Positions 12,786 to 39,633 of a stretch of 64,000 nt of DNA are shown in pieces. Position 1 is the first letter of the stretch. Each line of letters opens with the position of its first letter. The stretch is from an uncultured bacterium (GTDB taxonomy: Bacteria > Patescibacteriota > Patescibacteriia > UBA1558 > GWA2-36-10), in NCBI GenBank assembly GCA_903855135.1, contig CAINYB010000006.1:29631-93630 (forward strand), given 5' to 3'. The notes beneath the pieces were generated by a model. That model saw nothing but the letters and a program-made list of their open reading frames with translations. It was not told the origin of the DNA and ran no database searches. A program made the position numbers and the translations under genes.

Positions 12786-14516
12786 TTAAAATTTTATTAC
12801 TTCTCCTGGCTGAATAATATTTTGCTCTTCTTCGGCTTGATCTTGGCGAAGAATCTCTGGCTTAGCCTTTAGAGCTTCAGCTAAAGAAACAAACTCTTCT
12901 TTTTTATCATCTCTATCATAGTTCGGCACTATTTTTATACTAGAAGGTGGTGGAATTTTACCAGACTTAGCTAAATCTAAACAATTTTTGCAATAAACCG
13001 CTTTGCTTGGATCTGGATCAAAATTAATCTCTGCTTCTGAACCACAAAAAGAACAGTTTATTTTATGTTTAATATTTTTTATACTTTTCTTTGATCCGTG
13101 TTCATCACGGCTTAGTTTTTCTTGTTTTTTTCTATCGCCTGCACGTCTATTCTCTACTTTTTTAGCAGACTGTGTCCCACCAGAAGGCGTGATAGCAGCA
13201 GAAGAACTCTCTTTTTTCTCACTTGTTTTTTCGTCTTTATTTTCACTCCAGCGCATAATCTTTTCTTCTATTTCTTCTCTGGGACTAGCATAACGTTCTC
13301 GTGAGACCCTAATCACTTTATCTCTAACTTCTTTATCACTTGGTTTGATATCTATCGGCGGTAAAGTAGTGGCCGAGAAGGCTTCAGAAGCTACGCCGTC
13401 GATCATGAGTTTTAAATAAATCTGATATTTTGGTAAATTGACTAAATTTTCTTGCGTGAATTGTGGAAAAAACTCTTTTTCTAAAGCTTCGGCATCTACC
13501 GCACCAACTCTAAAAGAAACTATCGTGCCCACATTACCAAAAATAGCAGCTTGAACTTTTTCATCTACCTGCTCAATGTATTGGTGGGCAATTGTTAAGT
13601 CTAGACGATATTTTCTAGCTTCTGATAAAATATTAGCAAATGATTCTGTGGCAAAGTTTTGAAACTCATCGACATAAAGAAAAAAATCTTTACGTTCAGT
13701 TTCTGGAATATTCACTCGACTCATAGCCGCGAGCTGGATCTTAGTAATCATCATCGCCCCCAATAAAGCTGAATTATCTTCACCGACTCTACCTTTAGCT
13801 AAGTTTAATAACAAAATTTTCTGATTATCCATCACTTCCCTCATAGTAAAAGAAGATTTTACTTGGCCTAAAATATTTCTGATCAAAGCTGAAGACAAGA
13901 ATCTGCCAACCTTATTTTGAATCGGAGCGATAGCCTCACTTTGAAATCTATCTGGATATTTAGCATATTCCTCTACCCAAAAAGCTTTGACCACTGGATC
14001 AGATAATTTATCTACTACTTTATTACGAAAATTTTTGTCCACCAACATCCTCATGATGCCAAGCAAAGTAGAACCCGGATACTCCAGTAAAGCCGAAATA
14101 GCATGGTGCAAAACATATTCCAAACGAGGACCCCAAGAATCAGCCCAAATCTTTTTGAAAACACCGATCAAACCGGAAACTACCAAATGTCTTTCTGACT
14201 CGTCGACACTTTCTAACACATTAAAAGCAATGGGGAAATCTAAATCTGAAGGATTAAAATAAATCACATCATTGATTCTATTTGCCGGAATAAAATCAAC
14301 GACTTTTTCTACTAAATCGCCATGTGGATCAATCACGCAGACGCCGTGTCCAGCATGAATATCTTGGATGATCATATTTTCCTGCAAAACTGATTTACCC
14401 ATACCAGTTTTACCAATGATGTACATATGTCGACGACGATCATCGGTTTTGATACCAAACTTTACTTCTGAATTACGAAAGTTTGTTTTACCAAAAAAGT
14501 TAATATTTTGATTCAT
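12786..14516 (-). CDS. TrwB/VirD4/HerA-type P-loop ATPase domain protein (split form) with C-terminal CxxC-x17-CxxC zinc ribbon
   Basis: RRRHMYIIGKTGMGKS Walker A with upstream His; VCVIDPHGD; Walker B FFLYVDEFQNF; AHQ motif; tail CSFCGSEAEINFDPDPSKAVYCKNC. Paralog of the C-terminal half of 25146..27593. Confidence 0.65.
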   Translation of the reverse strand: MNQNINFFGKTNFRNSEVKFGIKTDDRRRHMYIIGKTGMGKSVLQENMIIQDIHAGHGVCVIDPHGDLVEKVVDFIPANRINDVIYFNPSDLDFPIAFNVLESVDESERHLVVSGLIGVFKKIWADSWGPRLEYVLHHAISALLEYPGSTLLGIMRMLVDKNFRNKVVDKLSDPVVKAFWVEEYAKYPDRFQSEAIAPIQNKVGRFLSSALIRNILGQVKSSFTMREVMDNQKILLLNLAKGRVGEDNSALLGAMMITKIQLAAMSRVNIPETERKDFFLYVDEFQNFATESFANILSEARKYRLDLTIAHQYIEQVDEKVQAAIFGNVGTIVSFRVGAVDAEALEKEFFPQFTQENLVNLPKYQIYLKLMIDGVASEAFSATTLPPIDIKPSDKEVRDKVIRVSRERYASPREEIEEKIMRWSENKDEKTSEKKESSSAAITPSGGTQSAKKVENRRAGDRKKQEKLSRDEHGSKKSIKNIKHKINCSFCGSEAEINFDPDPSKAVYCKNCLDLAKSGKIPPPSSIKIVPNYDRDDKKEEFVSLAEALKAKPEILRQDQAEEEQNIIQPGEVIKF

Positions 14517-14521
14517 TTTAT

Positions 14522-16021
14522 TTATTCGATTGGTAAATTAGATGGTGCCTCAGCTTTTGTGCTAGCTAATCTAGCTGGCTCTTTGGTGCTTTTAGCTTTT
14601 GCAAATTTATCTTCAAAATAATTATTATCTATATCCACATTAAAAGCTGGTTTTTTTAATTGCGCCATTAAAGCTTCTTTTTCTGACGAAACATTATCGC
14701 TAAAACCAGCAATCGGTAAAGAGCTTGGAGCTTCAGATTTTTTAACTTCCGTACGATGCAAAAGCGGCGTGCGTACTTCCATACCAGGGAAATGCCATAA
14801 ACTAGCTAGCTCTTCAATATTTAAAATAAAAGATTTGTAGCCCATTGCACCGCTACGACTCTTGCAAGCTCTGATGATATTTTCTCGACGACGATTATTA
14901 CGATATTTAGTAAACCAATAGTTAGTTGAAGTTTTAGTTTTAGGATCTGGTTTAAAACTATTTAAATCTAAGGTAGAAAATTGTTTAATAGCTCCAAAGA
15001 CAGAAGATATCACTCTGGGTGGAGAAAAATCTTCTTTAGGGGAGATATAAGCCAAACGAATTTTACACTCGAAACCTATCTTACTAGCCTTATTATTAAT
15101 CGCTTCTAAAATATTTTTTTCGCCTGGCGTCAAATGCAACATCATGCTTGGCATGTCTTCTTTTTTCTTTTCTTTTGATTCTTTCCAAAGAGGATAGACA
15201 AACTCACCTAAATTATCAAGCGTATTCATAAAAACATCCACTGCCTGATTACCTTTTGAGGCTGGTTTTGGCGCTGCTTTCTTACCGGCTATTTTATAAG
15301 CCATTTTTTCCGAATTTGCTAGCCATTCTACGCCAGTTGGTTTGACCATGATTTGAAACCAAACTTGTTCACCAACATGAATTTTACTCATGGTTTCTAG
15401 CAAAGCTGCTAAAGGATCTTTATACTCACCAGAAACCTTATCTTCAAAAGCTGGGTAAGTACGAATCGGTAAAGCATCTGATTTTACCGGTACTATTTCT
15501 GTGCCCCAGACATTATAGTTATCATCCGGAAATTTGGTTGGCGCCCAAGTCGTATAATCCTCTACTTCAGTGATTTCGGCATCTGGGTATTGGGAATAAA
15601 TCGCACTTTCTACCACATCCCTATGTTGGGTAGGAGTACGCACCAAAAATTGCACATAACCGTCAATACTCACAATTTCAAAAGAAAAGGCAAGTTGAAA
15701 TTGCCCTTTAACATACATATCAACATTATTCAAGTTAGCATGAGCACCGGAAACTGTCGAAAATAAACCCTCAACCGCTTTAGGTGTTTGTTCATGGTCT
15801 TTTGGTATATCTACCGCTAATAAAGTAAATTTTATGCCCGAAAACCATTTGTCTTGTTTAAGCATTAGCCAAACTTGATAGCCTTGAGTAATAAAAAGAT
15901 AAGCAAAAAGTATCCAAGCACCATGGATAAAAATATACCACATCGCTGCTTCAGGACCATTAGAAACCGCATTCAATAAATCAGTTAAATCAATAACTAA
16001 ATTTAAAAACTCTATTTGCAT
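14522..16021 (-). CDS. Membrane-anchored N-domain partner of the split ATPase; homologous to the N-terminal half of 25146..27593
   Basis: TM helix followed by segments alignable to the fused paralog (..FSFEIVSIDGYVQFLV..YPDAEITEVEDY.. versus ..FSLEIVATSTEINFYA..YPKVYFEEISDY..) and the shared linker LNIEELASLWHFPG / LNAEEMISMVHLPL. Confidence 0.5.
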   Translation of the reverse strand: MQIEFLNLVIDLTDLLNAVSNGPEAAMWYIFIHGAWILFAYLFITQGYQVWLMLKQDKWFSGIKFTLLAVDIPKDHEQTPKAVEGLFSTVSGAHANLNNVDMYVKGQFQLAFSFEIVSIDGYVQFLVRTPTQHRDVVESAIYSQYPDAEITEVEDYTTWAPTKFPDDNYNVWGTEIVPVKSDALPIRTYPAFEDKVSGEYKDPLAALLETMSKIHVGEQVWFQIMVKPTGVEWLANSEKMAYKIAGKKAAPKPASKGNQAVDVFMNTLDNLGEFVYPLWKESKEKKKEDMPSMMLHLTPGEKNILEAINNKASKIGFECKIRLAYISPKEDFSPPRVISSVFGAIKQFSTLDLNSFKPDPKTKTSTNYWFTKYRNNRRRENIIRACKSRSGAMGYKSFILNIEELASLWHFPGMEVRTPLLHRTEVKKSEAPSSLPIAGFSDNVSSEKEALMAQLKKPAFNVDIDNNYFEDKFAKAKSTKEPARLASTKAEAPSNLPIE

Positions 16022-16258: not shown

Positions 16259-17362
16259 TTAGTTAGTTTTTAAGAAATATCTACCTTTTTCATCGCGACC
16301 AAAACGATCTTTATTCATCAAAGCTAAGGTAATAGTAGTCTCTTTGATTAAGCGTTTCTTTAATACTTCAGCGACAATTTCTTTTTTAGATAATGATCTA
16401 TCAGTATTTTTCAAAATCTCCGCAATCACATCAGCGACTACACCTGGTTTAAAGCCCCATTCTTTAAGGGCATAAATACCACGACCAACTAAAACATATT
16501 TGTCATCCAAGATTAATTCATTGTGAATAGTAGCCGGATAAGCTTTACGGGTATCAAAAGTGCGATCATTGATGATGTTAGCGATTTCTGTAAAGTGTAA
16601 TGGCTTAGCTTCTTTTTTCAAAACAATATAAATCTTATCATTCATACGTTTTGGACTGATGCTTGGCCAATGATTTAAACCCCATTCTTGATAAGGATTA
16701 TCTTTGATCTTTTTGGTAATAAACAAAAAGTTTACTACTACTTTATCAGTCAAATCGTCATTGGAGACAAAAAAGTCAGCCTCAGAAATCTTATTAATCA
16801 ACTCATCTAAAGTCAAAGGCTCTTCTTCTTTGCTTAATAGATCAACAATTTTGTTGACTACTTCATCAAAAAAGTCTAAAGAAGCTTCTGGAGTTTTCCA
16901 AAAATCATGTACTTCTTTATTGGCTCTGACAAAATGAAAACGATGATTCAAAAGTTGACTTAAAATAAAGTTAATCGCGGCTTTATTACTTGAGCTTGCA
17001 CCCGGCACTAACAATAATTCTTTAATCAAGTTTTCTTCTGACATCATGCCACCGTGCTCAGCCAAAATAGCATTAGCAATATCCTCGATCTTCTTTAATA
17101 AGTTTTGATCAAAGTTTTTGCTAATTTTTTTCAGCGAACTGTTTTCAATTTGACGCACACGTTCACGAGTGATTTGGTATAGTTTACCAATATCTTCTAA
17201 AGTCTTTTTTTCTACTCCAGATAAACCGTGACGCATTTTTAAAATCTCTCTTTCACGTTCAGAAAGCAAAGACAACAGTTCTTCAACTGTTTGAGTCGGA
17301 TTAAATTCGGCTAAATGGGACAACTGTTGAGCAGTCATTACTTGGTCTAAAATTGAACTCAT
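16259..17362 (-). CDS. Putative transcription regulator: N-terminal sigma-70 region-4-like HTH plus C-terminal HARE-HTH-like winged helix
   Basis: N-terminus LSEREREILKMRHGL..KTLEDIGKLYQITRERVRQIENSSLKKI is a region-4 signature; C-terminus HFTEIANII...YVLVGRGIYALKEWG matches the HARE-HTH pattern (RVGRG.F.L+EW). Confidence 0.5.
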   Translation of the reverse strand: MSSILDQVMTAQQLSHLAEFNPTQTVEELLSLLSEREREILKMRHGLSGVEKKTLEDIGKLYQITRERVRQIENSSLKKISKNFDQNLLKKIEDIANAILAEHGGMMSEENLIKELLLVPGASSSNKAAINFILSQLLNHRFHFVRANKEVHDFWKTPEASLDFFDEVVNKIVDLLSKEEEPLTLDELINKISEADFFVSNDDLTDKVVVNFLFITKKIKDNPYQEWGLNHWPSISPKRMNDKIYIVLKKEAKPLHFTEIANIINDRTFDTRKAYPATIHNELILDDKYVLVGRGIYALKEWGFKPGVVADVIAEILKNTDRSLSKKEIVAEVLKKRLIKETTITLALMNKDRFGRDEKGRYFLKTN

Positions 17363-17510: not shown

Positions 17511-18413
17511 TTAGCTCTTTTTTGAATTCCAAAGCACTACTATCGGGGAAGCAATAAAAATAGATGAATAAGTACCGATAATTACGCCCAAAATCAAAGC
17601 TAAGACAAAATATCTCACACTCTCACCACCAAAGATATAGACCGCTAATAGGGCAAATAAAGTTGTTAAAGAGGTATTTAAAGACCTTACAATGGTCTCA
17701 TTGACACTCAAATTGACAATTTCTGCAAAAGATTGTCCTTTGATCTTAAATAAATTTTCACGAGTTCTATCAAAAGTCACAATCGTGTCATGAACAGAAA
17801 AGCCTAAAATCGTCAATAAGGCAGTAACAAATAAAACGTCTACTTCAACATTTAGAAAATGTCCTAAAATAGCATAAATACCAATAATAATGAAAATGTC
17901 ATGGAATAAAGCAATAACAGCGGCTACACCATACTTCCAGCTAGCTACTGGTTTTGACACGTGTCTAAAGGCATAAGCAATGTAAGCAATGATTAAGATC
18001 AAAACTAAAACGATCGCTTGCACAGCCTTGTCTTTTAATTCGTTACCAATAGTTGGTCCGATAGATTCAAATTTTAATTCTTGTCCTTGCAAAGCTTGAT
18101 TATCAACTTGAACGTTTTTTAAAGCAGTTAAAATTTCCTGATGTCTTGGTTCGTCAACGCTTTCAAAACGAATAAAAAATTCATTATCACCACTTGGCTG
18201 AATACGTAAACTTTCTAGATTTAAAGGCTGTAAAACTTCTGTGATTTTTTCTACACTTGGTCGATTTGGCTGATAAGCTATTTCCAATAAACTTCCACCA
18301 GTGAAATCAATGCTTAATTTCAAACCCCAAATAAGCAAAGCAGCTAAACTAATAGCAGACAAAACACCTGAAATACCAAACCACCAATTTTTTTTACCAA
18401 TAATATTATACAT
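17511..18413 (-). CDS. secF: Protein translocase subunit SecF
   Basis: 300 aa, SecF topology and conserved C-terminal TM bundle; immediately follows secD. Confidence 0.85.
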   Translation of the reverse strand: MYNIIGKKNWWFGISGVLSAISLAALLIWGLKLSIDFTGGSLLEIAYQPNRPSVEKITEVLQPLNLESLRIQPSGDNEFFIRFESVDEPRHQEILTALKNVQVDNQALQGQELKFESIGPTIGNELKDKAVQAIVLVLILIIAYIAYAFRHVSKPVASWKYGVAAVIALFHDIFIIIGIYAILGHFLNVEVDVLFVTALLTILGFSVHDTIVTFDRTRENLFKIKGQSFAEIVNLSVNETIVRSLNTSLTTLFALLAVYIFGGESVRYFVLALILGVIIGTYSSIFIASPIVVLWNSKKS

Positions 18414-18418
18414 AAAAA

Positions 18419-20095
18419 TTACTCTTTATTTTGTTTAACACCAAATAGCCACAATTTATTTTCTAACTTTTGGGTGACTAATAAACGTAAAAATGTACGA
18501 GTGACGGTAATAGCTGTAAACATAGAAACCAAGATACCAAGTGCCAAAGTAATAGCAAAACCCTTGACCACCGAAGTACCGAACCAAGCTAAAACCAAAC
18601 AAGTAATAATCGAGGAAACATTTGAGTCACGGATAGAAGTCCAAGCACGAGCAAAACCATTTTCAATCGCCATAGTTAAACTCTGACCAGCGCGTAGCTC
18701 TTCTTTGGTACGTTCAAAAATCAACACATTGGCATCCACGGCCATACCAATAGAAAGAATAAAGCCAGCAATACCAGCTAAAGTCATCGTGACCGGAATA
18801 GCTTCAAAAATAGCCAAAGAAACAATAGCGTAAATCAATAAAGCAAAGACTGATAACAAGCCTGGGAAACGATAGAATACTAACATGAAGATAGCAGCGG
18901 CTAACAAACCGATGATACCAGCAGCCAAACTCTTTTGGACTGAATCAGCGCCTAAAGAAGCACCGATAGTTTGTTGACTTAATAATTTGATAGGCACAGG
19001 AAGTGCACCAGAATTCAAACGTCTGACCATGTCTTTAGCTTCTTTGACAGTGAAATTACCAGAAATAACAGCTTTACCATCAGTAATCGCCTCTTGGACA
19101 GTTGGAGCAGAAATAATAAAGCCATCCAAGAAAATAGCTACTGGTTTACCGACATTGGCTTGAGTAATCTGACCAAATAAATCTTTACCAGTTTCATCAA
19201 ACTCTAGTGCTACTAATGGTTGATTGGTATTTTGATCAAAGTCTAAAGCAGCTTTTTTTAAATTTTTACCACCCAAAGCTGTCAAATCCCAAGTGGAACC
19301 AGCTAAATCAGCATTTGGATCTTTGATCAAAATATGAGCAGCGTGTACTTCAGTTTCTCCAGCATCATTTTTACGCTCCTCTATCTTTTTAATAATATGA
19401 AAACCAAACTGGGATTTCACTAAAGTTTTAGAAATCTCGCCAGCTTTTAGCTGATCAAAAATAGCAGCATCAAACTCAGGCACAAAATCTCCACGCTTAG
19501 CCCATGGTAAATCACCACCATTGGTAGCCGTGGATAAATCTTCACTATATTCTTGAGCAAGCTTAGTAAAATCTTCACCTTTTAAAGCTTTATTTAAAAT
19601 ATCTTGAGCTTTAGTTTGTGCATCAGTCAAGGCTTGGTTATCAACTGCTACTGGCTGACCTTGAGTTTTGAATTCTAACAATGGAGTTTCGCCGATCATT
19701 TTGATCGCTTCACTGACATCTTTGACACCAGCCAACTCGACAATGATACGATAATTATCACCACTGTAATTTGTTTGCACATTTGGTTCTGACACACCGT
19801 AGACATTGACACGACGTTCAATCACATCTCTGACGCCTTCAACTGCTTCTTTTTTTTCAACATTTGGGATATTGCTGACATCAGCCTGATAAACCAAGTG
19901 AGTACCACCTTGTAAATCTAAACCTAAATGAACTTTAAAGCGACTAAACCAAGCAACTCCATTTGGCCAAGCAACAAAGCCAGCAAAAGTGGCAACTAAA
20001 ACTATGGCCAAAAAAGTCCAACGAACTTGATTTTTACTTGCGACACGACGAATGGTATTTCTTTTTTCCATAAATAAAGTATTTAAATATGACAA
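18419..20095 (-). CDS. secD: Protein translocase subunit SecD with an embedded parvulin (PpiC)-like motif set in the periplasmic P1 domain
   Basis: SecD N-terminal TM, LGLDLQGGTHLVY, C-terminal RND-like TM bundle; internal NGGDLPWAKRGDFVPEFDAAIF...SQFGFHIIKKIEE plus AAHILIK resemble PpiC rotamase motifs. Confidence 0.8.
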   Translation of the reverse strand: MSYLNTLFMEKRNTIRRVASKNQVRWTFLAIVLVATFAGFVAWPNGVAWFSRFKVHLGLDLQGGTHLVYQADVSNIPNVEKKEAVEGVRDVIERRVNVYGVSEPNVQTNYSGDNYRIIVELAGVKDVSEAIKMIGETPLLEFKTQGQPVAVDNQALTDAQTKAQDILNKALKGEDFTKLAQEYSEDLSTATNGGDLPWAKRGDFVPEFDAAIFDQLKAGEISKTLVKSQFGFHIIKKIEERKNDAGETEVHAAHILIKDPNADLAGSTWDLTALGGKNLKKAALDFDQNTNQPLVALEFDETGKDLFGQITQANVGKPVAIFLDGFIISAPTVQEAITDGKAVISGNFTVKEAKDMVRRLNSGALPVPIKLLSQQTIGASLGADSVQKSLAAGIIGLLAAAIFMLVFYRFPGLLSVFALLIYAIVSLAIFEAIPVTMTLAGIAGFILSIGMAVDANVLIFERTKEELRAGQSLTMAIENGFARAWTSIRDSNVSSIITCLVLAWFGTSVVKGFAITLALGILVSMFTAITVTRTFLRLLVTQKLENKLWLFGVKQNKE

Positions 20096-20136: not shown

Positions 20137-20931
20137 CTATTTTTTAATAGCCAAAAACTGAATCGCTGAACCTAAATTTATCCATATTTTAGCTAAATAT
20201 CGATGTTCCCAAGCTAAATACTGATAATAATGCCTCAAAAACAACTTGCTTTCATTTCTCGGTAGATAATCATAAGTATAAAAAGCCTTAATTTCAAAAC
20301 CAACCTTAGCTAAAGTAACCTTTAATTCAGCGGGCACAAAGCTCTCGGCTTCTGGCTCTATTAGCTCAGTCTGCACAGTTTTTTGCTTAACAAAAATGTT
20401 TAAAATACGAGTAAACAATCTAAATAAAAACCAAACATAAAAAAATGGATTCCATAAAGCGCCATAGTTTTTATTTGGCTCACCTAGAACTACAAATTTA
20501 GCACCAGCTTTCAAAACTCGGAAAGCTTCAGTAAAAGTCTTTTCGGTGGCAAAAAAATGATGCAACGAACCATTGATCACTACCAAATCAAAAAAATTAT
20601 CTTCATAAGGCAAATTCACTGACTCACCTAAGCTAAAATTTATCTGCGGATATTTATTTTTCGCAATCTTTAAAACTTCTTCTGATAAATCTACACCGTA
20701 AACATTATCGGTAACTTGTAATAGCTTGGCACTCAAACGTCCAGTACCACAAGCAATGTCTAAACATTTATCAACTTTTTTATGATCAATAAAATTCTGT
20801 AAATTATCAAAATTCCACTGATCAACTATTTTGGCTGATTCAGTTTCGGTATGCCAAGCATCATATTTCTCGGCTGTACTATTATAATAATCTTGTTGAA
20901 TTTGTTTTTTCTCTTGATAAAAATCTTGCAT
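20137..20931 (-). CDS. Class I SAM-dependent methyltransferase
   Basis: Motif I LDIACGTGRLS, motif post-I VYGVDLSE, FDLVVINGSLHH. Confidence 0.7.
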   Translation of the reverse strand: MQDFYQEKKQIQQDYYNSTAEKYDAWHTETESAKIVDQWNFDNLQNFIDHKKVDKCLDIACGTGRLSAKLLQVTDNVYGVDLSEEVLKIAKNKYPQINFSLGESVNLPYEDNFFDLVVINGSLHHFFATEKTFTEAFRVLKAGAKFVVLGEPNKNYGALWNPFFYVWFLFRLFTRILNIFVKQKTVQTELIEPEAESFVPAELKVTLAKVGFEIKAFYTYDYLPRNESKLFLRHYYQYLAWEHRYLAKIWINLGSAIQFLAIKK

Positions 20932-20933
20932 AT

Positions 20934-21623
20934 TTATTTAAAAAATATTGGAATCTCTAAAGCGTCATCATTGGCTGGCAAGCCAGACGGATTGTCTTTT
21001 TGTAAAATGATTGAACCGTTATTTTTATAAGTAGCTTTATCAAAACTAATATTTGCTTCAAAAGGCACAAAGTCTTCTGTCATCCAGTCGCCTTTAGCCT
21101 GCGCTATTCCTTGACCGATGATCAAACCATCCCAATTTACAATAGATATCGGAAAGCTGGCTTCAAAAAACCAATTACCTCTCGCCTCACCTGTGATTTT
21201 AACAGGGCTAGTGATGCTATCGCCAGCATGGACTGACTCTAGCTTGATCAAATCTTTGTGCTCTTCTTCTTGCTTGTTATCAATCGCTATTTCCTCTACA
21301 TAAACCATGTCTTTACCTTGGCATTGACGTGGATATGACTCCATCACCGGGAAGCCAGCTGCTTCACACTCACTAAAATTAGTCACTACTTTATCTTCAT
21401 CTGTTTTCACTTCCCCACAGCCTGTTTTTGGCATTTCCGCACTAGGGCTTCCATGCTTGATCCACTGACTATTTTCACATAACCAAGTATCTTCTTTGGT
21501 AGAAAATTTAAGCGCTAAACCAATAATAAGCAATAAAGCAAAAAAACCTTCTAAGATAAAATAAATGTATTTTTTACATGTACATGCACTGCCATTTTGG
21601 CAATTTTTACATTTTGATATCAT
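20934..21623 (-). CDS. Membrane-anchored protein with N-terminal Cys cluster and possible C-terminal Gmad2-like Ig-fold domain
   Basis: CKNCQNGSACTCKK, one TM helix, C-terminal GNWFFEASFPISIVNWDGLIIGQGIAQAKGDWMTEDFVPF reminiscent of Gmad2. Confidence 0.4.
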   Translation of the reverse strand: MISKCKNCQNGSACTCKKYIYFILEGFFALLLIIGLALKFSTKEDTWLCENSQWIKHGSPSAEMPKTGCGEVKTDEDKVVTNFSECEAAGFPVMESYPRQCQGKDMVYVEEIAIDNKQEEEHKDLIKLESVHAGDSITSPVKITGEARGNWFFEASFPISIVNWDGLIIGQGIAQAKGDWMTEDFVPFEANISFDKATYKNNGSIILQKDNPSGLPANDDALEIPIFFK

Positions 21624-21676: not shown

Positions 21677-21750
21677 TCGGGGATCGTCTAATGGTAGGAC
21701 AACAGGTTCTGGTCCTGTTTATTGGGGTTCGAATCCCTATCCCCGAGCCA
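21677..21750 (+). tRNA. tRNA-Gln (anticodon CUG), 74 nt with encoded CCA
   Basis: Hand-folded cloverleaf: 7-bp acceptor tcgggga/tccccga with U1-A72 and G73 (bacterial Gln identity elements), D-loop with GG, anticodon stem acagg/cctgt, loop ttCTGgt, T-loop ttcgaat, 3' CCA. The reverse orientation fails because there is no U33. Confidence 0.8.
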
Positions 21751-21852: not shown

Positions 21853-22782
21853 TTATTGTTTCAAAATAGGTTTATACAACTCTGGATCTATGGTTCTACT
21901 AAAACAAGTTTTTTCAGCTTTATGATCCCAATTTTGTTGGAAATCTACCATATACATATCATTGTTTATCCTATCATTTTGAGCATTACTTATGGTCTTG
22001 AAGTCAGCACAAAGCTCAAAAGCTAAATCACCAGTGACTTTGTATTCATAGATAGCTTTAGTGTCTGGGTCAGTTGGTACTTTAAAACCAGAAATACTAT
22101 CCTCTAGAGCGCTTAATTGGTTTGGTAAGGTTTGTTTTTGTTGCCAATAATTTAAGACTTCATTTTGAATAGTCTGTAAATTTTGTATTCTTTGTTCATC
22201 AAAACGATAAGCTCTTTGTTTAGTTGGTGTACCGATAATAAAAAATCCTAAAGCCACAGAAGCAATCACCAAAATCGCAGTCACCCAAGCAAAAATCTGA
22301 TTTAATTTTTTATTGGCTTCCTCTCTTTTCAAATCCCAAAGATAATAAGAGAATACTAAACCAGCTACTAACAAGACCACTAGGACTTTAAAGAAAAATT
22401 TAATACTCAAATCACCATCTAAAAAGCGATAAACAAACATGATCAAATCAATAATAATTGTAACAGCAGAAACAAAAAGGGTTAAATAAAGTAACCACTT
22501 TCTGATTTTGATTTCTCTTTTTTCTTTGTTAAGCGAGACATCTTTAGCTAAGATCCAAGCAGTTAACAAATAAAACGGCCAAGCAATAATCAACATCGAG
22601 GTAAATACCCTGACAGCTTGGGCAATACTGTTATAATAAAAAGTCAAAGCATCTGGATACAGGAAGTCAATGTATTGGATATAAAGATTGATAAAACTCA
22701 CGATACTTAAATAAAAAGTCACGATGCCAAATAAATGTAAAAATACATCTTTGGGCGTGCTTTTTAGTGTAGTTTGCTCCAT
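21853..22782 (-). CDS. Polytopic membrane protein, unknown function
   Basis: 309 aa, about 6 TM helices in N-terminal half, soluble C-terminal domain; no motif recognised. Confidence 0.4.
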   Translation of the reverse strand: MEQTTLKSTPKDVFLHLFGIVTFYLSIVSFINLYIQYIDFLYPDALTFYYNSIAQAVRVFTSMLIIAWPFYLLTAWILAKDVSLNKEKREIKIRKWLLYLTLFVSAVTIIIDLIMFVYRFLDGDLSIKFFFKVLVVLLVAGLVFSYYLWDLKREEANKKLNQIFAWVTAILVIASVALGFFIIGTPTKQRAYRFDEQRIQNLQTIQNEVLNYWQQKQTLPNQLSALEDSISGFKVPTDPDTKAIYEYKVTGDLAFELCADFKTISNAQNDRINNDMYMVDFQQNWDHKAEKTCFSRTIDPELYKPILKQ

Positions 22783-25145: not shown

Positions 25146-27593
25146 TTAAAAACTAAAACGTTTCTCAATTTCCGCTTCTACACCAGCTCTGTCTTTACCG
25201 TATTTGAGACTAGATAATTCTTTCAAAGCTTGAGCTAATTCAAAGTTTCCTTTTTCCGCCATAATCGGATTAAAGTTAAAAGCCGGAGCAGCCGTGTTAT
25301 CGATCAATAATCTGACGTAACAAGTATATTTGGGCATATTGACCAAATCATATTCCGAAACCACTGGCGCCATTTGTTTAGCAATGATCTCTGCATCTTC
25401 GACACCGATACGATAAGAAATGATGGTACCAACATTACCAAAGATAGCATCTCGTACACGCGTGTCACCATTTTTGACTAGCTGGGCTAAAAACTGATGG
25501 GCCAAGATAAGGTCTAGACGATATTTTCTGGCTTCCGATAAAATAATAGCGATACTATCAGTAATAAAGTTTTGAAACTCATCAATGTATAAATAAAAAT
25601 CTTTGCGTTCATTTTCTGGGATATTCACTCGACTCATAGCCGCAAATAATAGTTTACCGATGACAATCATACCAAGCAAGCTACTATTTATTTCTCCGAT
25701 TTTACCTTTGGATAGATTTAATAAAATTATTTTATTCGTATCCATGGCTTCCCGAAAATTAAAAGCACTTTTACTTTGCGCAATTATCGGACGGATCAAA
25801 TCATTAGCAATAAATGGCGTCAATTTACTAGTGATATAAGGCACCATGTTGGCCAATGATGCTTCACCACCAGCTTTTTGCGCTTCTTTTTCCCAAAAGT
25901 CTTTGACGAAATGATTTTTTACTGTCAGTAATTTTTGTTTTCTAAAATCTTCATCAGCCAAAACTTTAGGGATTTCGAGTAGCGTTGCACCAGAATCTTT
26001 ATCATCCATGATGAGTAACATCGCATTACGCATATATTGCTCAAACATCGGACCACCGGTGGCTTTCAAATCATAGAGTTTGTCAAAGATCGCGATCATT
26101 TCATTGATCACAAAAGTTTTTTGCTCATCAGTGTCATATTCTAGCATGTTCATGCCTAATGGCCGGCTAGAATTTGCTGGATCAAACAAAATCACATCTC
26201 CTGCTCTTTCTTTCGGAATATGTGCTAAAACTGACTCGATGCTATCACCATGTGGATCAATCACGCAGACACCTTTGCCGGCTTTGATATCCTGGATAAT
26301 CAAACTTTCTTGTAAAACTGATTTACCCACACCAGTCTGACCGATGATGTACATATGTCGACGACGATCAGCATCTTTGATACGCACGAGAGTCTCTGCA
26401 CCTCTAAAAGAGCTCTTGCCTAAAACTAAGCCTTCTGTAGCCATATTTTGTGGTGGCGCTGCTTTACTGGCCTCTAGCCAGGCAATGCGTGGTGTTTCAG
26501 TCGTAGGCAAAGGCAAATGAACCATTGAGATCATTTCTTCTGCATTGAGCAAAATACGAATATTAGTATCATAATGACGATAAATAAAATCTTTGATTAA
26601 TTTGTCTGGATTTTTTGGTAATAAAGCTTTAAAAACATTACCAAATTCATAAATATTATATTGGGCATAGCTATTTAAGATGTCAGCCAAAATAGCATTT
26701 GACCTTTCTTTACTTGGGCTTGAACAAATCACTCTGATATTGACATCTAGTCCGGGCTTAGAGCTTTTTTCTTGCAACATCTTGCCAGCTTCTTGTTCCA
26801 TGGCTGAAGTCTGATGTTTATCTTTATCTCCTAAAACACCTTGATCATTATCTTTTTTGGTAGAAAAAAAACTTAATAAAAAACTAAAAGCTTTACCTAA
26901 AAAATTTAAAACACCGGTTCCATAACTTTCAGTAATCGCTGCTTTAAAAGTCATGCCTTTGGCCATATTAGCTACTATTTTGTGAGCACGATCATGCCAT
27001 TTTTTTGGTGCAGATTTAAAGACATATTGCACTGCAGCTGATTCATGTTCATTTAGCTTACTTAAAGCATTGGTGATACTTTCCAAAGGATCATTGTCAA
27101 AACTTTTGTAAGTTTTGACTGGTAAAGCGATATCACTCTGTATTTTTAAAACACCAGCTTTTATCACACTATTTGCTTCAAAAATATTATAATCAGATAT
27201 TTCTTCAAAATATACTTTTGGATAAACAGTCTGTATTTGTTGAACAAAAAAGGTTTTATATTTTGGTGGCATCGCAGCGTAAAAATTTATCTCTGTAGAA
27301 GTAGCAACTATTTCTAAAGAAAAAACTTCACTTAGTTTAAACCAAGATTTTTCTGCTTTTAAACCAGCTAAAGAATAAAAAAAATTTTCTACTTGTCCCA
27401 AACTAGAGATGATAAAATCTTTTGTTAGCTGTTCTCTTTCACTTTTGGTGTAGCGCGGTATCTTAATCAAAATAATGTCTAAAGATAAATCTTTATTTAT
27501 TCTTTTTTTATACCAAACAAATAAAAACAAGGCAATTAAACAAAAAACAACCAATATAGCTACTAGTAAAATTGTCTGAATATCAATAGTCAT
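25146..27593 (-). CDS. Membrane-anchored TrwB/VirD4/HerA-type P-loop ATPase, fused form (N-domain + ATPase), 815 aa
   Basis: N-terminal TM helix; RRRHMYIIGQTGVGKS; VCVIDPHGD; Walker B FYLYIDEFQNF; AHQ. Its N- and C-halves align respectively with ORFs 14522..16021 and 12786..14516. Confidence 0.7.
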   Translation of the reverse strand: MTIDIQTILLVAILVVFCLIALFLFVWYKKRINKDLSLDIILIKIPRYTKSEREQLTKDFIISSLGQVENFFYSLAGLKAEKSWFKLSEVFSLEIVATSTEINFYAAMPPKYKTFFVQQIQTVYPKVYFEEISDYNIFEANSVIKAGVLKIQSDIALPVKTYKSFDNDPLESITNALSKLNEHESAAVQYVFKSAPKKWHDRAHKIVANMAKGMTFKAAITESYGTGVLNFLGKAFSFLLSFFSTKKDNDQGVLGDKDKHQTSAMEQEAGKMLQEKSSKPGLDVNIRVICSSPSKERSNAILADILNSYAQYNIYEFGNVFKALLPKNPDKLIKDFIYRHYDTNIRILLNAEEMISMVHLPLPTTETPRIAWLEASKAAPPQNMATEGLVLGKSSFRGAETLVRIKDADRRRHMYIIGQTGVGKSVLQESLIIQDIKAGKGVCVIDPHGDSIESVLAHIPKERAGDVILFDPANSSRPLGMNMLEYDTDEQKTFVINEMIAIFDKLYDLKATGGPMFEQYMRNAMLLIMDDKDSGATLLEIPKVLADEDFRKQKLLTVKNHFVKDFWEKEAQKAGGEASLANMVPYITSKLTPFIANDLIRPIIAQSKSAFNFREAMDTNKIILLNLSKGKIGEINSSLLGMIVIGKLLFAAMSRVNIPENERKDFYLYIDEFQNFITDSIAIILSEARKYRLDLILAHQFLAQLVKNGDTRVRDAIFGNVGTIISYRIGVEDAEIIAKQMAPVVSEYDLVNMPKYTCYVRLLIDNTAAPAFNFNPIMAEKGNFELAQALKELSSLKYGKDRAGVEAEIEKRFSF

Positions 27594-39150: not shown

Positions 39151-39633
39151 AAGGCTTAAATTAGCCTCATAAGCCGAATTCTGTTCTCCAGCAAGCTGGA
39201 GTGATGATCATCTATCTAGGACTATGATTGCCCATAGCCTCAAGCAAGCTACCCGATCCCGCTTAGCGGGACCCTATTTGCTCTTGCACCGAATAGAGTT
39301 TAGCTCTTTTAGCTTGTCACCAAGCTAACGGGTCAGCTCATTATCTGACCATTTCACCCTTATCCTTCGATTCGGCCTTGCGGTCTCACTCAGGAAGGAA
39401 TACTCTCTGTTCAACTTGTCCTGACCACTTAGTCGCCCAAATGGCCGGTTGTCGTTAACAACTATCCTCCATTTAAAAATGGAAAATGGTGTTCGGACTT
39501 TATCCTCCCTCCTTCGCTGTCGCTACGCGCCAGCTACGGACGGGCAGGCCCCGCTAAATTGTAGGGCTTGCCGTACGAAGCTCAAACGCAGTGAGAGCGA
39601 AGGACGGCGATCATCTCGGCTAATTTAAACCTT
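39151..39633 (-). ncRNA. rnpB: RNase P RNA (bacterial type), not in ORF track
   Basis: Minus-strand transcript contains GGAGGAUAAAGUCCGAACACC (CR-I/P4 5' strand), AAGGGUGAAAUGGUCAGAUAAUGAGCUGACC (CR-II/P10.1-P12 pattern) and ACAGAAUUCGGCUUAU (CR-IV/P4 3' strand). P4 shows compensatory GG to AA and CC to UU changes relative to E. coli. P1 helix GGUUUAAAUUAGCC/GGCUAAUUUAAGCC closes the molecule. Lies in a 750-nt ORF-free gap of elevated GC. Confidence 0.8.

What the first reader, a model, noticed from the sequence alone, without database searches (positions are those of the whole stretch)
19312..19618. Parvulin (PpiC)-like motif set embedded in the periplasmic P1 domain of SecD
Between the SecD base motifs the sequence reads TKLAQEYSEDLSTATNGGDLPWAKRGDFVPEFDAAIFDQLKAGEISKTLVKSQFGFHIIKKIEE, then AAHILIK. 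These match the GGDLG, FGYHIIK and HIL signatures of PpiC/SurA rotamases. That is where the P1-head subdomain would be. It looks like a domain fusion joining a prolyl isomerase or chaperone module to the translocon accessory subunit, comparable to PpiD/YfgM associating with SecYEG-SecDF in E. coli.
Basis: partly seen in the sequence, partly recalled or inferred. Interest (0 to 1): 0.55.

Follow-up and report, generated by a model that had tools for sequence, protein, structure and literature searches.

The report
Prolyl isomerase domain inserted in SecD
The protein-export helper SecD of this candidate-phyla-radiation bacterium carries a complete, apparently active prolyl-isomerase (parvulin) domain spliced into its outer loop, with the domain's strands in a rearranged order, so a protein-folding catalyst is hard-wired to the secretion machine.

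Summary
Window 19312-19618 (minus strand) encodes SecD residues 160-262, which match the parvulin families Rotamase_3 (E 2.7e-23) and Rotamase (E 4.1e-21).

The P1 head is kept (residues 267-367, PF22599, E 1.3e-30). The parvulin is a clean insertion of about 120 residues (147-266) between the last P1-base strand (LLEFK) and the first head motif (W..T.L.GK). Insert-free SecDs have only a few residues there.

Its beta1 strand (VHAAHILIK) follows beta4 (FGFHIIKK) as a hairpin. Pfam profile coverage, two AlphaFold models and fold searches all support this.

The parvulin catalytic tetrad (D186, H233, H254, S/T228) is conserved in 120 of 120 homologues.

The architecture is widespread in Patescibacteria. 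All 120 closest protein clusters have it, and so do the 80 loci kept from a scan of one genome per species. Two-parvulin and SecDF-fused variants occur in other lineages of the radiation. Databases name these proteins simply "SecD", and I found no paper describing the fusion.

The most likely function is a translocon-tethered, PrsA/SurA-like foldase that acts on chains emerging from SecYEG. It is a new variant of known kinds and of moderate interest.

The parts
18419..20071 (-). secD coding sequence. The mechanical ORF starts at TTG 20095. The likely true start is ATG 20071 (M9), which gives 550 aa like the homologues.
   Evidence: ORF list. TIGR01129 scores 397.7 bits against a cut-off of 244.4. 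The closest homologues are mostly 550-551 aa, and M9 is nearly invariant. Upstream sequence read.
19970..20035 (-). TM1 of SecD (aa 21-42, in the numbering of the 558-codon ORF)
   Evidence: Helix 21-42 in the AlphaFold model; coordinates checked.
19658..19945 (-). N-terminal part of the P1 base (aa 51-146), ending in the conserved strand LLEFK
   Evidence: Pfam Sec_GG (aa 53-72) and SecD_1st (aa 86-144, E 2.1e-16). Aligns to T. thermophilus SecDF residues 29-124.
19640..19657 (-). N-terminal linker of the insert (aa 147-152). It is variable in length and sequence among homologues.
   Evidence: Alignment excerpt. The region q146-160 ranges from 13 to 31 residues in length. pLDDT is about 73-74.
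19370..19639 (-). Parvulin core: helices alpha1-alpha4 and strands beta2-beta4 (aa 153-242). It contains S184, D186, GGDL (193-196), F204, F208, S228 and FGFH233IIKK.
19355..19369 (-). Hairpin loop NDAGE (aa 243-247) linking beta4 to the relocated beta1
   Evidence: DSSP assignments on both models. The surrounding q238-250 stretch, which contains the loop, varies only between 12 and 14 residues across 120 sequences.
19322..19354 (-). Relocated parvulin beta1 strand TEVHAAHILIK (aa 248-258), carrying the invariant H254-I255-L256
   Evidence: In an artificial de-permuted sequence this strand matches the N-terminal part of the Rotamase profiles. Modelled as strand 248-258 paired with 231-242. H254 is conserved in 120 of 120 sequences.
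19298..19321 (-). C-terminal linker of the insert (aa 259-266)
   Evidence: Lowest-confidence stretch of the model, with pLDDT below 50 at 264-266. Absent from insert-free SecDs.
18995..19297 (-). Retained P1 head subdomain (aa 267-367), starting with the motif W269..T..L.GK
   Evidence: PF22599 SecDF_P1_head covers aa 272-367, E 1.3e-30. Aligns to T. thermophilus SecDF from residue 160 onward. The motif is shared with insert-free SecDs.
18476..18961 (-). TM2-TM6 bundle of SecD (aa 379-540), including D454, the equivalent of T. thermophilus SecDF D340
   Evidence: SecD_SecF_C. The alignment igmavDanvlifer / lgaavDgnvlsfer is shown. D454 is invariant.
17511..18413 (-). secF (300 aa), starting 5 nt after the secD stop codon
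   Evidence: TIGR00966 scores 290.6 bits against a cut-off of 160; ORF list.

Best explanation
What is shown:
- The gene is a genuine secD, followed by secF.
- Its extracytoplasmic P1 domain carries an insertion of about 120 residues (aa 147-266), exactly at the junction between the P1 base and the mobile P1 head.
- The insert is a parvulin-type peptidyl-prolyl isomerase domain on two flexible linkers. The P1 head and base are otherwise intact.
- The parvulin is circularly permuted. The chain enters at helix alpha1 and runs through beta2, alpha4, beta3 and beta4. It then turns back through a 5-residue loop into the strand that is beta1 (the 'HIL' strand) in every canonical parvulin. It leaves from there into the P1 head.
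- The catalytic hydrogen-bond tetrad is strictly conserved: D186, H254, H233 and S/T228, corresponding to Pin1 C113, H59, H157 and T152. The hydrophobic proline pocket (L196, F204, F208) is also kept.

What is inferred:
- The domain is an active, non-phospho-specific PPIase and substrate-binding module.
- It is held next to the polypeptide-binding P1 head, directly above the SecYEG exit.
- There it captures unfolded exported chains as SecDF pulls them out, and accelerates their prolyl-limited folding.
- It would thus do in cis what PrsA (Firmicutes), SurA and PpiD (Proteobacteria) and the Mpn444 'dome' (Mycoplasma) do as separate translocon-associated proteins.

Distribution: the architecture is conserved across many Patescibacteria lineages. 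This genome is about 94% identical in SecD to Parcubacteria bacterium GW2011_GWA2_36_10.
For: Domain identity:
- Pfam Rotamase_3 E 2.7e-23 and Rotamase E 4.1e-21, flanked by SecD_1st (aa 86-144) and SecDF_P1_head (aa 272-367).
- PDB sequence matches to SecDF on both sides of the insert and to SurA and PrsA parvulins within it.

Insertion limits:
- Alignment with insert-free SecDs.
- T. thermophilus SecDF has 35 residues (125-159) where this protein has 127 (147-273).

Circular permutation:
- The Pfam hits lack the N-terminal beta1 part of the profiles (positions 34-115 of 116 and 11-96 of 97).
- Moving aa 244-262 in front of the core extends coverage to 14-115 and 1-96. It raises the scores from 86.3 to 94.3 bits and from 80.1 to 83.5 bits.
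- AlphaFold places strand 248-258 in a hairpin with 231-242 at pLDDT above 90, both in the full protein and in the isolated domain (pLDDT 90.8, pTM 0.80).
- Canonical parvulins superpose on only 77-90 of the 119 residues. This is what a sequential aligner gives when one strand is out of order.

Conservation:
- D186, H233 and H254 are conserved in 120 of 120 sequences. Position 228 is S (103) or T (17). L196, F204 and F208 are each kept in at least 90%.

Distribution:
- All 120 best 90%-identity clusters carry PF00639/PF13616 together with the SecD domains.
- All 80 loci kept from the scan of one genome per species cover the whole junction. Their titles name Nomura-, Komeili-, Kuenen-, Uhr-, Buchanan-, Kerfeld-, Veblen- and Moraniibacteria. 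72 of the 80 show the order GYHIIK-loop-xHIL.
- 60 of the 144 nearest 50%-identity representatives that have both flanking regions carry a parvulin at this site.
- SecDF-fused forms occur in Peregrinibacteria and Abawacabacteria.

Functional precedent:
- SurA binds the SecYEG-SecDF-YidC holo-translocon, and AlphaFold models place its parvulin domains on the SecDF P1 head (PMC9987972).
- PrsA-like PPIase lipoproteins sit on SecDF/SecYEG in M. pneumoniae (10.1101/2025.04.25.650208; 10.1101/2024.09.05.611430).
Against: - No biochemical data exist for any member. PPIase activity and substrate contact are inferred only from residue conservation.
- Inactive parvulins that act purely as binding modules are known (SurA P1, PpiD).
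- The GGDLG motif reads GGDLPW in this protein. Many homologues have G at that position.
- Inter-domain geometry is not established. The pTM of the full model is 0.52 and both linkers have low confidence.
- I could not obtain model coordinates. The placement of the relocated strand in the beta1 slot rests on DSSP assignments, strand-neighbour logic and alignment lengths, not on a direct non-sequential superposition.
- I could not test whether these genomes lack a free PrsA-like foldase. I showed only that the 64-kb window has no other parvulin.
Confidence: 0.7

Rival explanations
1. The insert is a parvulin fold that works only as a non-catalytic substrate-binding or holdase module, or as a structural spacer on the P1 hinge. 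This would resemble the inactive P1 parvulin of SurA or the parvulin of PpiD. Prolyl isomerisation would play no role.
For: Inactive parvulins are common in translocon- and envelope-associated chaperones (established knowledge on SurA P1 and PpiD). In the two-parvulin SecD relatives, the first parvulin-like unit has lost the beta4 histidine, for example GYNLAK and GYEIFK. So degenerate, presumably non-catalytic units are tolerated at this site.
Against: In the single-insert family every catalytic-network residue is kept: D186, H233 and H254 in 120 of 120 sequences, and S or T at 228 in 120 of 120. This holds across sequences only 57-96% identical overall. The proline-pocket residues are kept too. 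Such conservation is not seen in the known inactive parvulins.
Confidence: 0.2
2. The trailing HIL strand is not part of the parvulin fold. It would be a relic of the beta1 strand of a lost second parvulin (as at the SurA P1-to-P2 junction), or part of the hinge to the P1 head. The parvulin core would then lack its central strand or borrow one from elsewhere.
For: The beta4-loop-beta1 segment closely resembles the E. coli SurA P1-to-P2 junction: [30 protein letters not shown] against GFHIIKKIEERKNDAGETEVHAAHILIK. In SurA the second strand belongs to the next domain. Related SecDs do carry two parvulin units.
Against: - No beta1-like segment lies upstream of alpha1. There is only a variable acidic linker directly after the SecD base strand.
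- H254-I255-L256 are nearly invariant although no second core follows.
- AlphaFold packs the strand against beta4 at pLDDT above 90 in two independent runs.
Confidence: 0.07
3. One reading: the parvulin module replaces the P1-head subdomain of SecD.
For: Only the approximate position in the sequence, between the SecD 'base' motifs.
Against: PF22599 SecDF_P1_head matches aa 272-367 at E 1.3e-30. T. thermophilus SecDF residues 160-438 align to aa 274-551. Insert-free SecDs align on both sides of a clean gap.
Confidence: 0.02
4. Artefact: a chimeric assembly, a frameshift joining two genes, or a chance motif resemblance.
For: None found.
Against: A single uninterrupted ORF spans the region. The same architecture appears in well over a hundred independent assemblies from NCBI, JGI, ENA and Logan. 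Pfam E-values are near 1e-23.
Confidence: 0.01

Closest known systems
Canonical SecD/SecDF (T. thermophilus SecDF, PDB 3AQP/5YHF; D. radiodurans 5XAN)
   Same: TM1, P1 base, P1 head and TM2-6 are all present. SecF is encoded immediately downstream. The TM4 aspartate (D454, equivalent to T. thermophilus D340) is present. The best PDB matches by both sequence and fold are SecDF structures.
   Different: A 120-residue parvulin domain is inserted at the base-to-head junction. T. thermophilus has 35 residues there, and the smallest SecDs only a few.
Parvulin PPIases (E. coli PpiC/Par10, the PrsA parvulin, SurA P2, Pin1 PPIase domain)
   Different: The strand order is circularly permuted: beta1 comes last instead of first. 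The beta1-alpha1 loop, which is the phosphate-binding loop in Pin1, is where the chain is opened and joined to SecD. No free-standing or lipoprotein form is involved.
Translocon-associated parvulin chaperones: PrsA (Firmicutes), SurA and PpiD-YfgM (E. coli), Mpn444/Mdp dome (M. pneumoniae)
   Same: All place a parvulin module on the trans side of the Sec translocon. SurA's parvulin domains are modelled on the SecDF P1 head (PMC9987972). Mpn444 cross-links to SecD and sits over SecYEG. PpiD-YfgM binds SecYEG (PMC9643414, listed).
   Different: Those are separate polypeptides. Each carries a SurA_N / trigger-factor-like chaperone domain, which this protein lacks (no such Pfam hit). Here the association is covalent and the host is SecD itself.
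Bacteroides fragilis essential periplasmic PPIase (PDB 8HM3/8HM4, the target of BfUbb)
   Different: It is a soluble 427-residue chaperone-type protein, not a SecD. I could not inspect its sequence or coordinates, so the equivalence of topology is inferred from alignment lengths only.
Two-parvulin SecD and SecDF variants in other Patescibacteria (for example P0122, P0137, P0149; Peregrinibacteria, Abawacabacteria)
   Same: The insertion site in P1 is the same. All share a parvulin core lacking a leading beta1 and a trailing strand before the P1 head.
   Different: Their inserts are 230-470 residues long. The usual order is a degenerate first core, then SHIL (beta1), then an intact second core (GYHII), then a mostly His-less trailing strand. 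Their intact unit therefore has the canonical strand order, while the window protein's single intact unit is permuted.

Membership tests
SecD (protein translocase subunit SecD, TIGR01129) | Scores above the curated equivalog-domain cut-off | tested here: met
   TIGR01129 scores 397.7 bits against a cut-off of 244.4, matching aa 57-536 to profile positions 1-397 of 397.
SecD (protein translocase subunit SecD, TIGR01129) | P1 base, P1 head and the C-terminal SecD/SecF transmembrane domain are all present | tested here: met
   Pfam SecD_1st, SecDF_P1_head and SecD_SecF_C all match. The fold search returns SecDF structures first.
SecD (protein translocase subunit SecD, TIGR01129) | A partner SecF is encoded adjacently | tested here: met
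   ORF 17511..18413 scores 290.6 bits on TIGR00966 against a cut-off of 160. It starts 5 nt after the secD stop codon.
SecD (protein translocase subunit SecD, TIGR01129) | Conserved TM4 aspartate of the proton pathway (T. thermophilus D340) | tested here: met
   D454 aligns to D340 in the phmmer alignment and is invariant in 42 homologues. The role of D340 comes from the SecDF structural literature, recalled from memory.
SecD (protein translocase subunit SecD, TIGR01129) | PMF-dependent stimulation of protein export | not testable with these tools
   Needs genetics or biochemistry.
Parvulin / PpiC-type PPIase (PF00639, PF13616) | Scores above the Pfam gathering thresholds | tested here: met
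   Rotamase_3 scores 83.1 bits (cut-off 22.5) and Rotamase 76.2 bits (cut-off 21.7).
Parvulin / PpiC-type PPIase (PF00639, PF13616) | Catalytic H-bond network (Pin1 H59, C113 or Asp, T152, H157) and hydrophobic proline pocket | tested here: met
   H254, D186, S228 and H233 are conserved in 120 of 120 sequences, with S or T at 228. L196, F204 and F208 are conserved. MAFFT pairs D186 with Pin1 D112. Assigning D186 to the C113 position rests on the S-x-D motif of bacterial parvulins and is an inference.
Parvulin / PpiC-type PPIase (PF00639, PF13616) | Canonical secondary-structure order beta1-alpha1-alpha2-alpha3-beta2-alpha4-beta3-beta4 | tested here: not met
   The beta1 strand (HIL) follows beta4. 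The fold elements are the same but circularly permuted, so this is a topological variant of the family.
Parvulin / PpiC-type PPIase (PF00639, PF13616) | Measurable cis-trans isomerase activity | not testable with these tools
   Needs an enzyme assay.
PrsA / SurA / PpiD-type envelope chaperones | Parvulin domain inserted in a SurA_N / trigger-factor-like chaperone (NC) domain | tested here: not met
   No SurA_N or trigger-factor-type Pfam hit is found in the protein. The NCBIfam PrsA, SurA and peptidylprolyl-isomerase models match aa 142-288 and are limited almost entirely to the insert (aa 147-266). All fall far below their cut-offs, for example 57.4 bits against 303. The protein is a functional analogue, not a member.
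PrsA / SurA / PpiD-type envelope chaperones | Location on the trans side of the membrane at or near the Sec translocon | tested here: met
   The insert lies in P1, between TM1 and TM2 of SecD. By homology to 3AQP this loop is extracytoplasmic.

The most novel reading that the evidence does not exclude
Across Patescibacteria, the free PrsA/SurA/PpiD-type foldase may have been replaced by a circularly permuted, catalytically active parvulin built into the hinge of the PMF-driven SecD P1 head. Head movement would then hand each emerging chain directly to an isomerase. On this reading the fusion is 'Rosetta-stone' evidence that parvulin chaperones in all bacteria work at the SecDF P1 head. It would also be the first described natural circular permutation of the parvulin fold, with a likely counterpart in the solved B. 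fragilis PPIase (8HM3).
Probability: 0.35. Interest if true: 0.7.

Novelty: new variant of a known kind. Interest (0 to 1): 0.55.

Why it matters
- How exported proteins are received and folded at the outer face of the Sec translocon is still debated. The roles of PpiD/YfgM, SurA-SecDF contacts, PrsA and the Mycoplasma dome are all under study.
- A conserved covalent fusion of a parvulin to the SecD P1 hinge, in a whole radiation of minimal-genome bacteria, is independent evolutionary evidence for a functional coupling between SecDF's polypeptide-binding head and parvulin foldases.
- It offers a compact, single-chain system for testing that coupling.
- It shows that the base-to-head junction of P1 tolerates whole-domain insertions.
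- It shows that the parvulin fold tolerates circular permutation, which is useful for protein engineering and for domain annotation.
- Current annotation hides the feature. These proteins are named only "SecD", and NCBIfam has no model for the architecture.

Tried and rejected
- **Model coordinates.** The tools do not return them, so a permutation-aware superposition could not be run. I relied on DSSP assignments, alignment lengths and a de-permuted Pfam scan instead.
- **8HM3/8HM4.** Three attempts failed. The two papers that mention BfUbb do not describe the PPIase fold. The original structure paper is not in the library. A short-query PDB search printed only the five E. coli SurA constructs.
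- **Taxon names.** The listing of cluster members on ten variant SecDs returned none. Names for the SecDF-fused variants came instead from a second homologue search.
- **Curated models.** NCBIfam scans of the window SecD and of seven variant SecDs found none for the fused architecture.
- **Literature.** Searches for SecD or SecDF with parvulin, PpiC, rotamase, PPIase, Patescibacteria or CPR, and for 'circular permutation' with parvulin, found no description of the fusion or of a permuted parvulin. The library is incomplete, so this is not proof of absence.
- **Second parvulin.** A six-frame HMM scan of the 64-kb window found only the SecD insert.
- **Other readings rejected.** Replacement of the P1 head, an assembly artefact and a chance motif match were all considered and rejected (see the rival explanations).
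Full report
**1. Observation**

The finding lies on the minus strand. ORF 18419..20095 encodes 558 codons from a TTG start. Homologues and the nearly invariant M9 point to ATG 20071 as the true start, giving 550 aa.

The ORF is SecD. TIGR01129 scores 397.7 bits against a cut-off of 244.4. SecF follows 5 nt downstream (17511..18413; TIGR00966 scores 290.6 bits against 160).

Translating 19312-19618 on the minus strand gives residues 160-262 and contains the quoted peptides. I use the numbering of the 558-codon ORF throughout. The plus-strand frame is full of stop codons.

Pfam finds four domains in order:
- SecD_1st, aa 86-144
- Rotamase_3, aa 157-240 (E 2.7e-23), with Rotamase at aa 152-238 (E 4.1e-21)
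- SecDF_P1_head, aa 272-367 (E 1.3e-30)
- SecD_SecF_C, aa 370-539

A sequence search of the PDB gives SecDF structures on both flanks and the SurA and PrsA parvulins in the middle.

**2. Where the domain sits**

It does not.

- T. thermophilus SecDF residues 29-124 align to aa 51-146, and residues 160-438 align to aa 274-551. So 35 residues in Thermus correspond to 127 here.
- Aligned with the shortest SecDs among the nearest relatives, the protein shows a clean gap. It runs from just after LLEFKTQG (aa 139-146) to just before the shared head motif W269..T..L.GK.
- The insert is therefore aa 147-266, or window 19298..19657. It sits at the junction between P1 base and P1 head.
- Both linkers vary in length among homologues and are the least confident parts of the AlphaFold model. 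This suggests a flexibly tethered domain.
- In related SecDs without a parvulin, the same junction carries anything from about 4 to more than 100 residues, some of it acidic low-complexity sequence. It is a hot spot for insertions.

**3. Circular permutation**

In all canonical parvulins the 'HIL' strand (beta1, with the first catalytic histidine) comes first and 'FGYHII' (beta4) comes last. Here the order is reversed: FGFH233IIKK, then the loop NDAGE, then TEVHAAH254ILIK. Five lines of evidence show that this is a true permutation.

- **Missing N-terminal profile match.** The Pfam matches lack the N-terminal part of both profiles (positions 34-115 of 116 and 11-96 of 97). Nothing beta1-like lies upstream of alpha1, only a variable linker.
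- **De-permuted test sequence.** I made an artificial sequence with aa 244-262 moved in front of the core. It matches Rotamase over positions 1-96 of 97 and Rotamase_3 over 14-115. The scores rise from 80.1 to 83.5 bits and from 86.3 to 94.3 bits.
- **AlphaFold models.** The full protein (42-sequence alignment, mean pLDDT 82.5) and the isolated insert (pLDDT 90.8, pTM 0.80) both give long strands 231-242 and 248-258 joined by a five-residue loop.
- **Strand-neighbour logic.** The parvulin sheet order is 2-1-4-3 (established knowledge, recalled from memory). Beta3 already pairs with one edge of beta4. A strand hairpinned to beta4 can therefore only occupy the beta1 slot, and it runs antiparallel, as beta1 does.

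No templates were used for the models, so the predicted fold has an experimental counterpart. That protein probably shares the strand order, but I could not inspect it.

The beta4-loop-beta1 segment is strikingly like the P1-to-P2 junction of E. coli SurA. The two-parvulin inserts of related SecDs are colinear with SurA's tandem parvulins. This points to an origin from a tandem SurA/PrsA-type array.

**4. Is it likely to be active?**

The equivalences are:

| Window SecD | Pin1 |
|---|---|
| H254 | H59 |
| S228 | T152 |
| H233 | H157 |
| L196 | L122 |
| F204 | M130 |
| F208 | F134 |

D186, in the S-E-D motif, takes the position of Pin1 C113, which is Asp in most bacterial parvulins. That last assignment is an inference, because MAFFT places a one-residue gap differently.

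Across 120 sequences (the window SecD plus 119 of its homologues, 57-96% identical):
- D186, H233 and H254 are invariant.
- Position 228 is S (103 sequences) or T (17).
- The pocket residues are each conserved in at least 90%.

Pin1's basic phosphate loop is absent. It is the very loop that has been opened to join SecD. A non-phospho-specific PPIase is therefore the best reading. Activity itself is untested.

**5. Distribution**

- The closest sequence (94-96% identity) includes Parcubacteria bacterium GW2011_GWA2_36_10.
- All 120 best 90%-identity clusters carry the Rotamase domains together with the SecD domains.
- I scanned one genome per species with a profile of the junction. All 80 loci kept cover the whole junction. 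Their titles name Nomura-, Komeili-, Kuenen-, Uhr-, Buchanan-, Kerfeld-, Veblen- and Moraniibacteria. 72 of the 80 show GYHIIK-loop-xHIL in that order.
- Some of those records are titled 'uncultured Gammaproteobacteria' or 'Bdellovibrionales'. I did not verify these labels.

Of the 150 nearest 50%-identity representatives, 144 have both flanking regions. Of these:

| Insert at the junction | Representatives |
|---|---|
| Single parvulin | 15 |
| 230-470 aa insert | 45 |
| No parvulin | 84 |

In the large inserts the usual order is a degenerate first core, then SHIL, then an intact second core (GYHII), then a mostly His-less trailing strand. The intact unit in those proteins therefore has the canonical order.

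SecDF-fused versions of 1000-1100 aa belong to Peregrinibacteria and Abawacabacteria.

No NCBIfam model captures the architecture, and the proteins are named only SecD or SecF.

**6. Mechanism**

Shown:
- A parvulin with intact catalytic residues is tethered by flexible linkers at the hinge of the P1 head.
- It lies on the extracytoplasmic side, between TM1 and TM2.
- The protein otherwise has all SecD features, including D454, the equivalent of T. thermophilus D340.

Inferred:
- SecDF's P1 head binds emerging polypeptide and swings with proton flow (SecDF structural literature, recalled from memory).
- The parvulin would bind the same unfolded chain and catalyse prolyl isomerisation. It would act as a built-in PrsA-like foldase in organisms with very small genomes.

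Precedents for non-covalent versions:
- SurA binds the holo-translocon, and AlphaFold places its two parvulin domains on the SecDF P1 head (PMC9987972).
- PpiD-YfgM binds SecYEG (PMC9643414, listed).
- In M. pneumoniae, PrsA-like PPIase lipoproteins form a dome over SecDF/SecYEG, and Mpn444 cross-links to SecD.

**7. Rival explanations**

- A purely non-catalytic binding module remains possible (about 0.2). It fits poorly with the strict conservation of the tetrad.
- The trailing strand could be a relic outside the fold (about 0.07). This conflicts with its invariance, the absence of any other beta1, both models and the 8HM3 match.
- Replacement of the P1 head and an assembly artefact are refuted.

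**8. Novelty and score**

SecD and parvulin are both well known, and precomputed Pfam annotations already show the combination. However, I found no description of the fusion, or of a permuted parvulin, in eight literature searches. The library is incomplete, so this is not proof of absence.

I class it as a new variant of a known kind. Interest is 0.55. It is a lineage-wide, evolution-made fusion that bears directly on an open question, namely who receives proteins at the Sec exit. The unexpected fold permutation adds to this. It has no experimental support yet.

Noticed in passing
Related proteins P0122, P0124, P0127, P0131, P0137, P0144, P0153 and others: Many related SecDs carry inserts of 230-470 aa at the same site. 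The usual order is a degenerate parvulin core (beta4 His lost, for example GYNLAK), then SHIL, then an intact core (GYHII), then a mostly His-less trailing strand. The co-retention of the histidines suggests that the middle strand and second core form a canonical parvulin. That parvulin would be nested inside a permuted, degenerate first one. This is untested.
   Followed up: partly
Related proteins P0149, P0150, P0162 and about 120 homologues: SecD-SecF single-chain fusions of 1000-1100 aa that also carry the parvulin insert(s). The named ones are Candidatus Peregrinibacteria and Abawacabacteria. The trait therefore spans deep branches of the Patescibacteria.
   Followed up: partly
PDB 8HM3_B / 8HM4: The essential B. 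fragilis periplasmic PPIase (target of the BfUbb toxin) matches the permuted insert colinearly over 109-116 positions, including the strand after beta4. Canonical parvulins match only 77-90. It may contain the same permuted parvulin. I could not inspect it.
   Followed up: partly
window 20071-20095 (minus strand): The mechanical ORF starts at TTG 20095, but homologues start at the equivalent of ATG 20071 (M9). No obvious Shine-Dalgarno sequence lies upstream of either start.
   Followed up: partly
Related proteins P0129 and P0135; gap lengths: SecDs without a parvulin have anything from about 4 to more than 100 residues at the same base-to-head junction. Some of this is acidic low-complexity sequence. 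The junction is a general insertion hot spot.
   Followed up: partly
Loci L006-L009, L011, L012, L019 and others: More than 20 of the 80 loci come from third-party assemblies titled 'uncultured Gammaproteobacteria' or 'Bdellovibrionales'. Their SecD junction matches the window's about as well as the named Patescibacteria loci do, and most have low G+C (0.26-0.45). These titles look like mislabels.
   Followed up: no
window 12786-14516 and 25146-27593 (minus strand): Two ORFs with TrwB/TraG/VirD4-type coupling-protein ATPase domains (PF10412, PF12696, PF02534; E 1e-7 to 1e-10) flank the secDF region. ORF 14522-16021 next to one of them has no Pfam hit.
   Followed up: no
window 16259-17362 (minus strand): The ORF immediately downstream of secF combines a sigma-70 region 4 domain with a HARE-HTH domain.
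   Followed up: no
window 21677-21750 (+) and 39157-39557 (-): tRNA-Gln (CTG) is found, one of very few plus-strand features. A class A bacterial RNase P RNA is also present (156.7 bits).
   Followed up: yes
window 1-64000: All of the long non-overlapping ORFs of 100 aa or more lie on the minus strand. The only plus-strand ORFs in that list are short ones nested inside minus-strand genes. G+C is 34.8%.
   Followed up: no
window 20934-21623 and 21853-22782 (minus strand): Upstream neighbours of secD include a membrane-anchored protein with a Gmad2 Ig-like domain and a DUF5671 membrane protein. A class I SAM methyltransferase lies directly upstream at 20137-20931.
   Followed up: no
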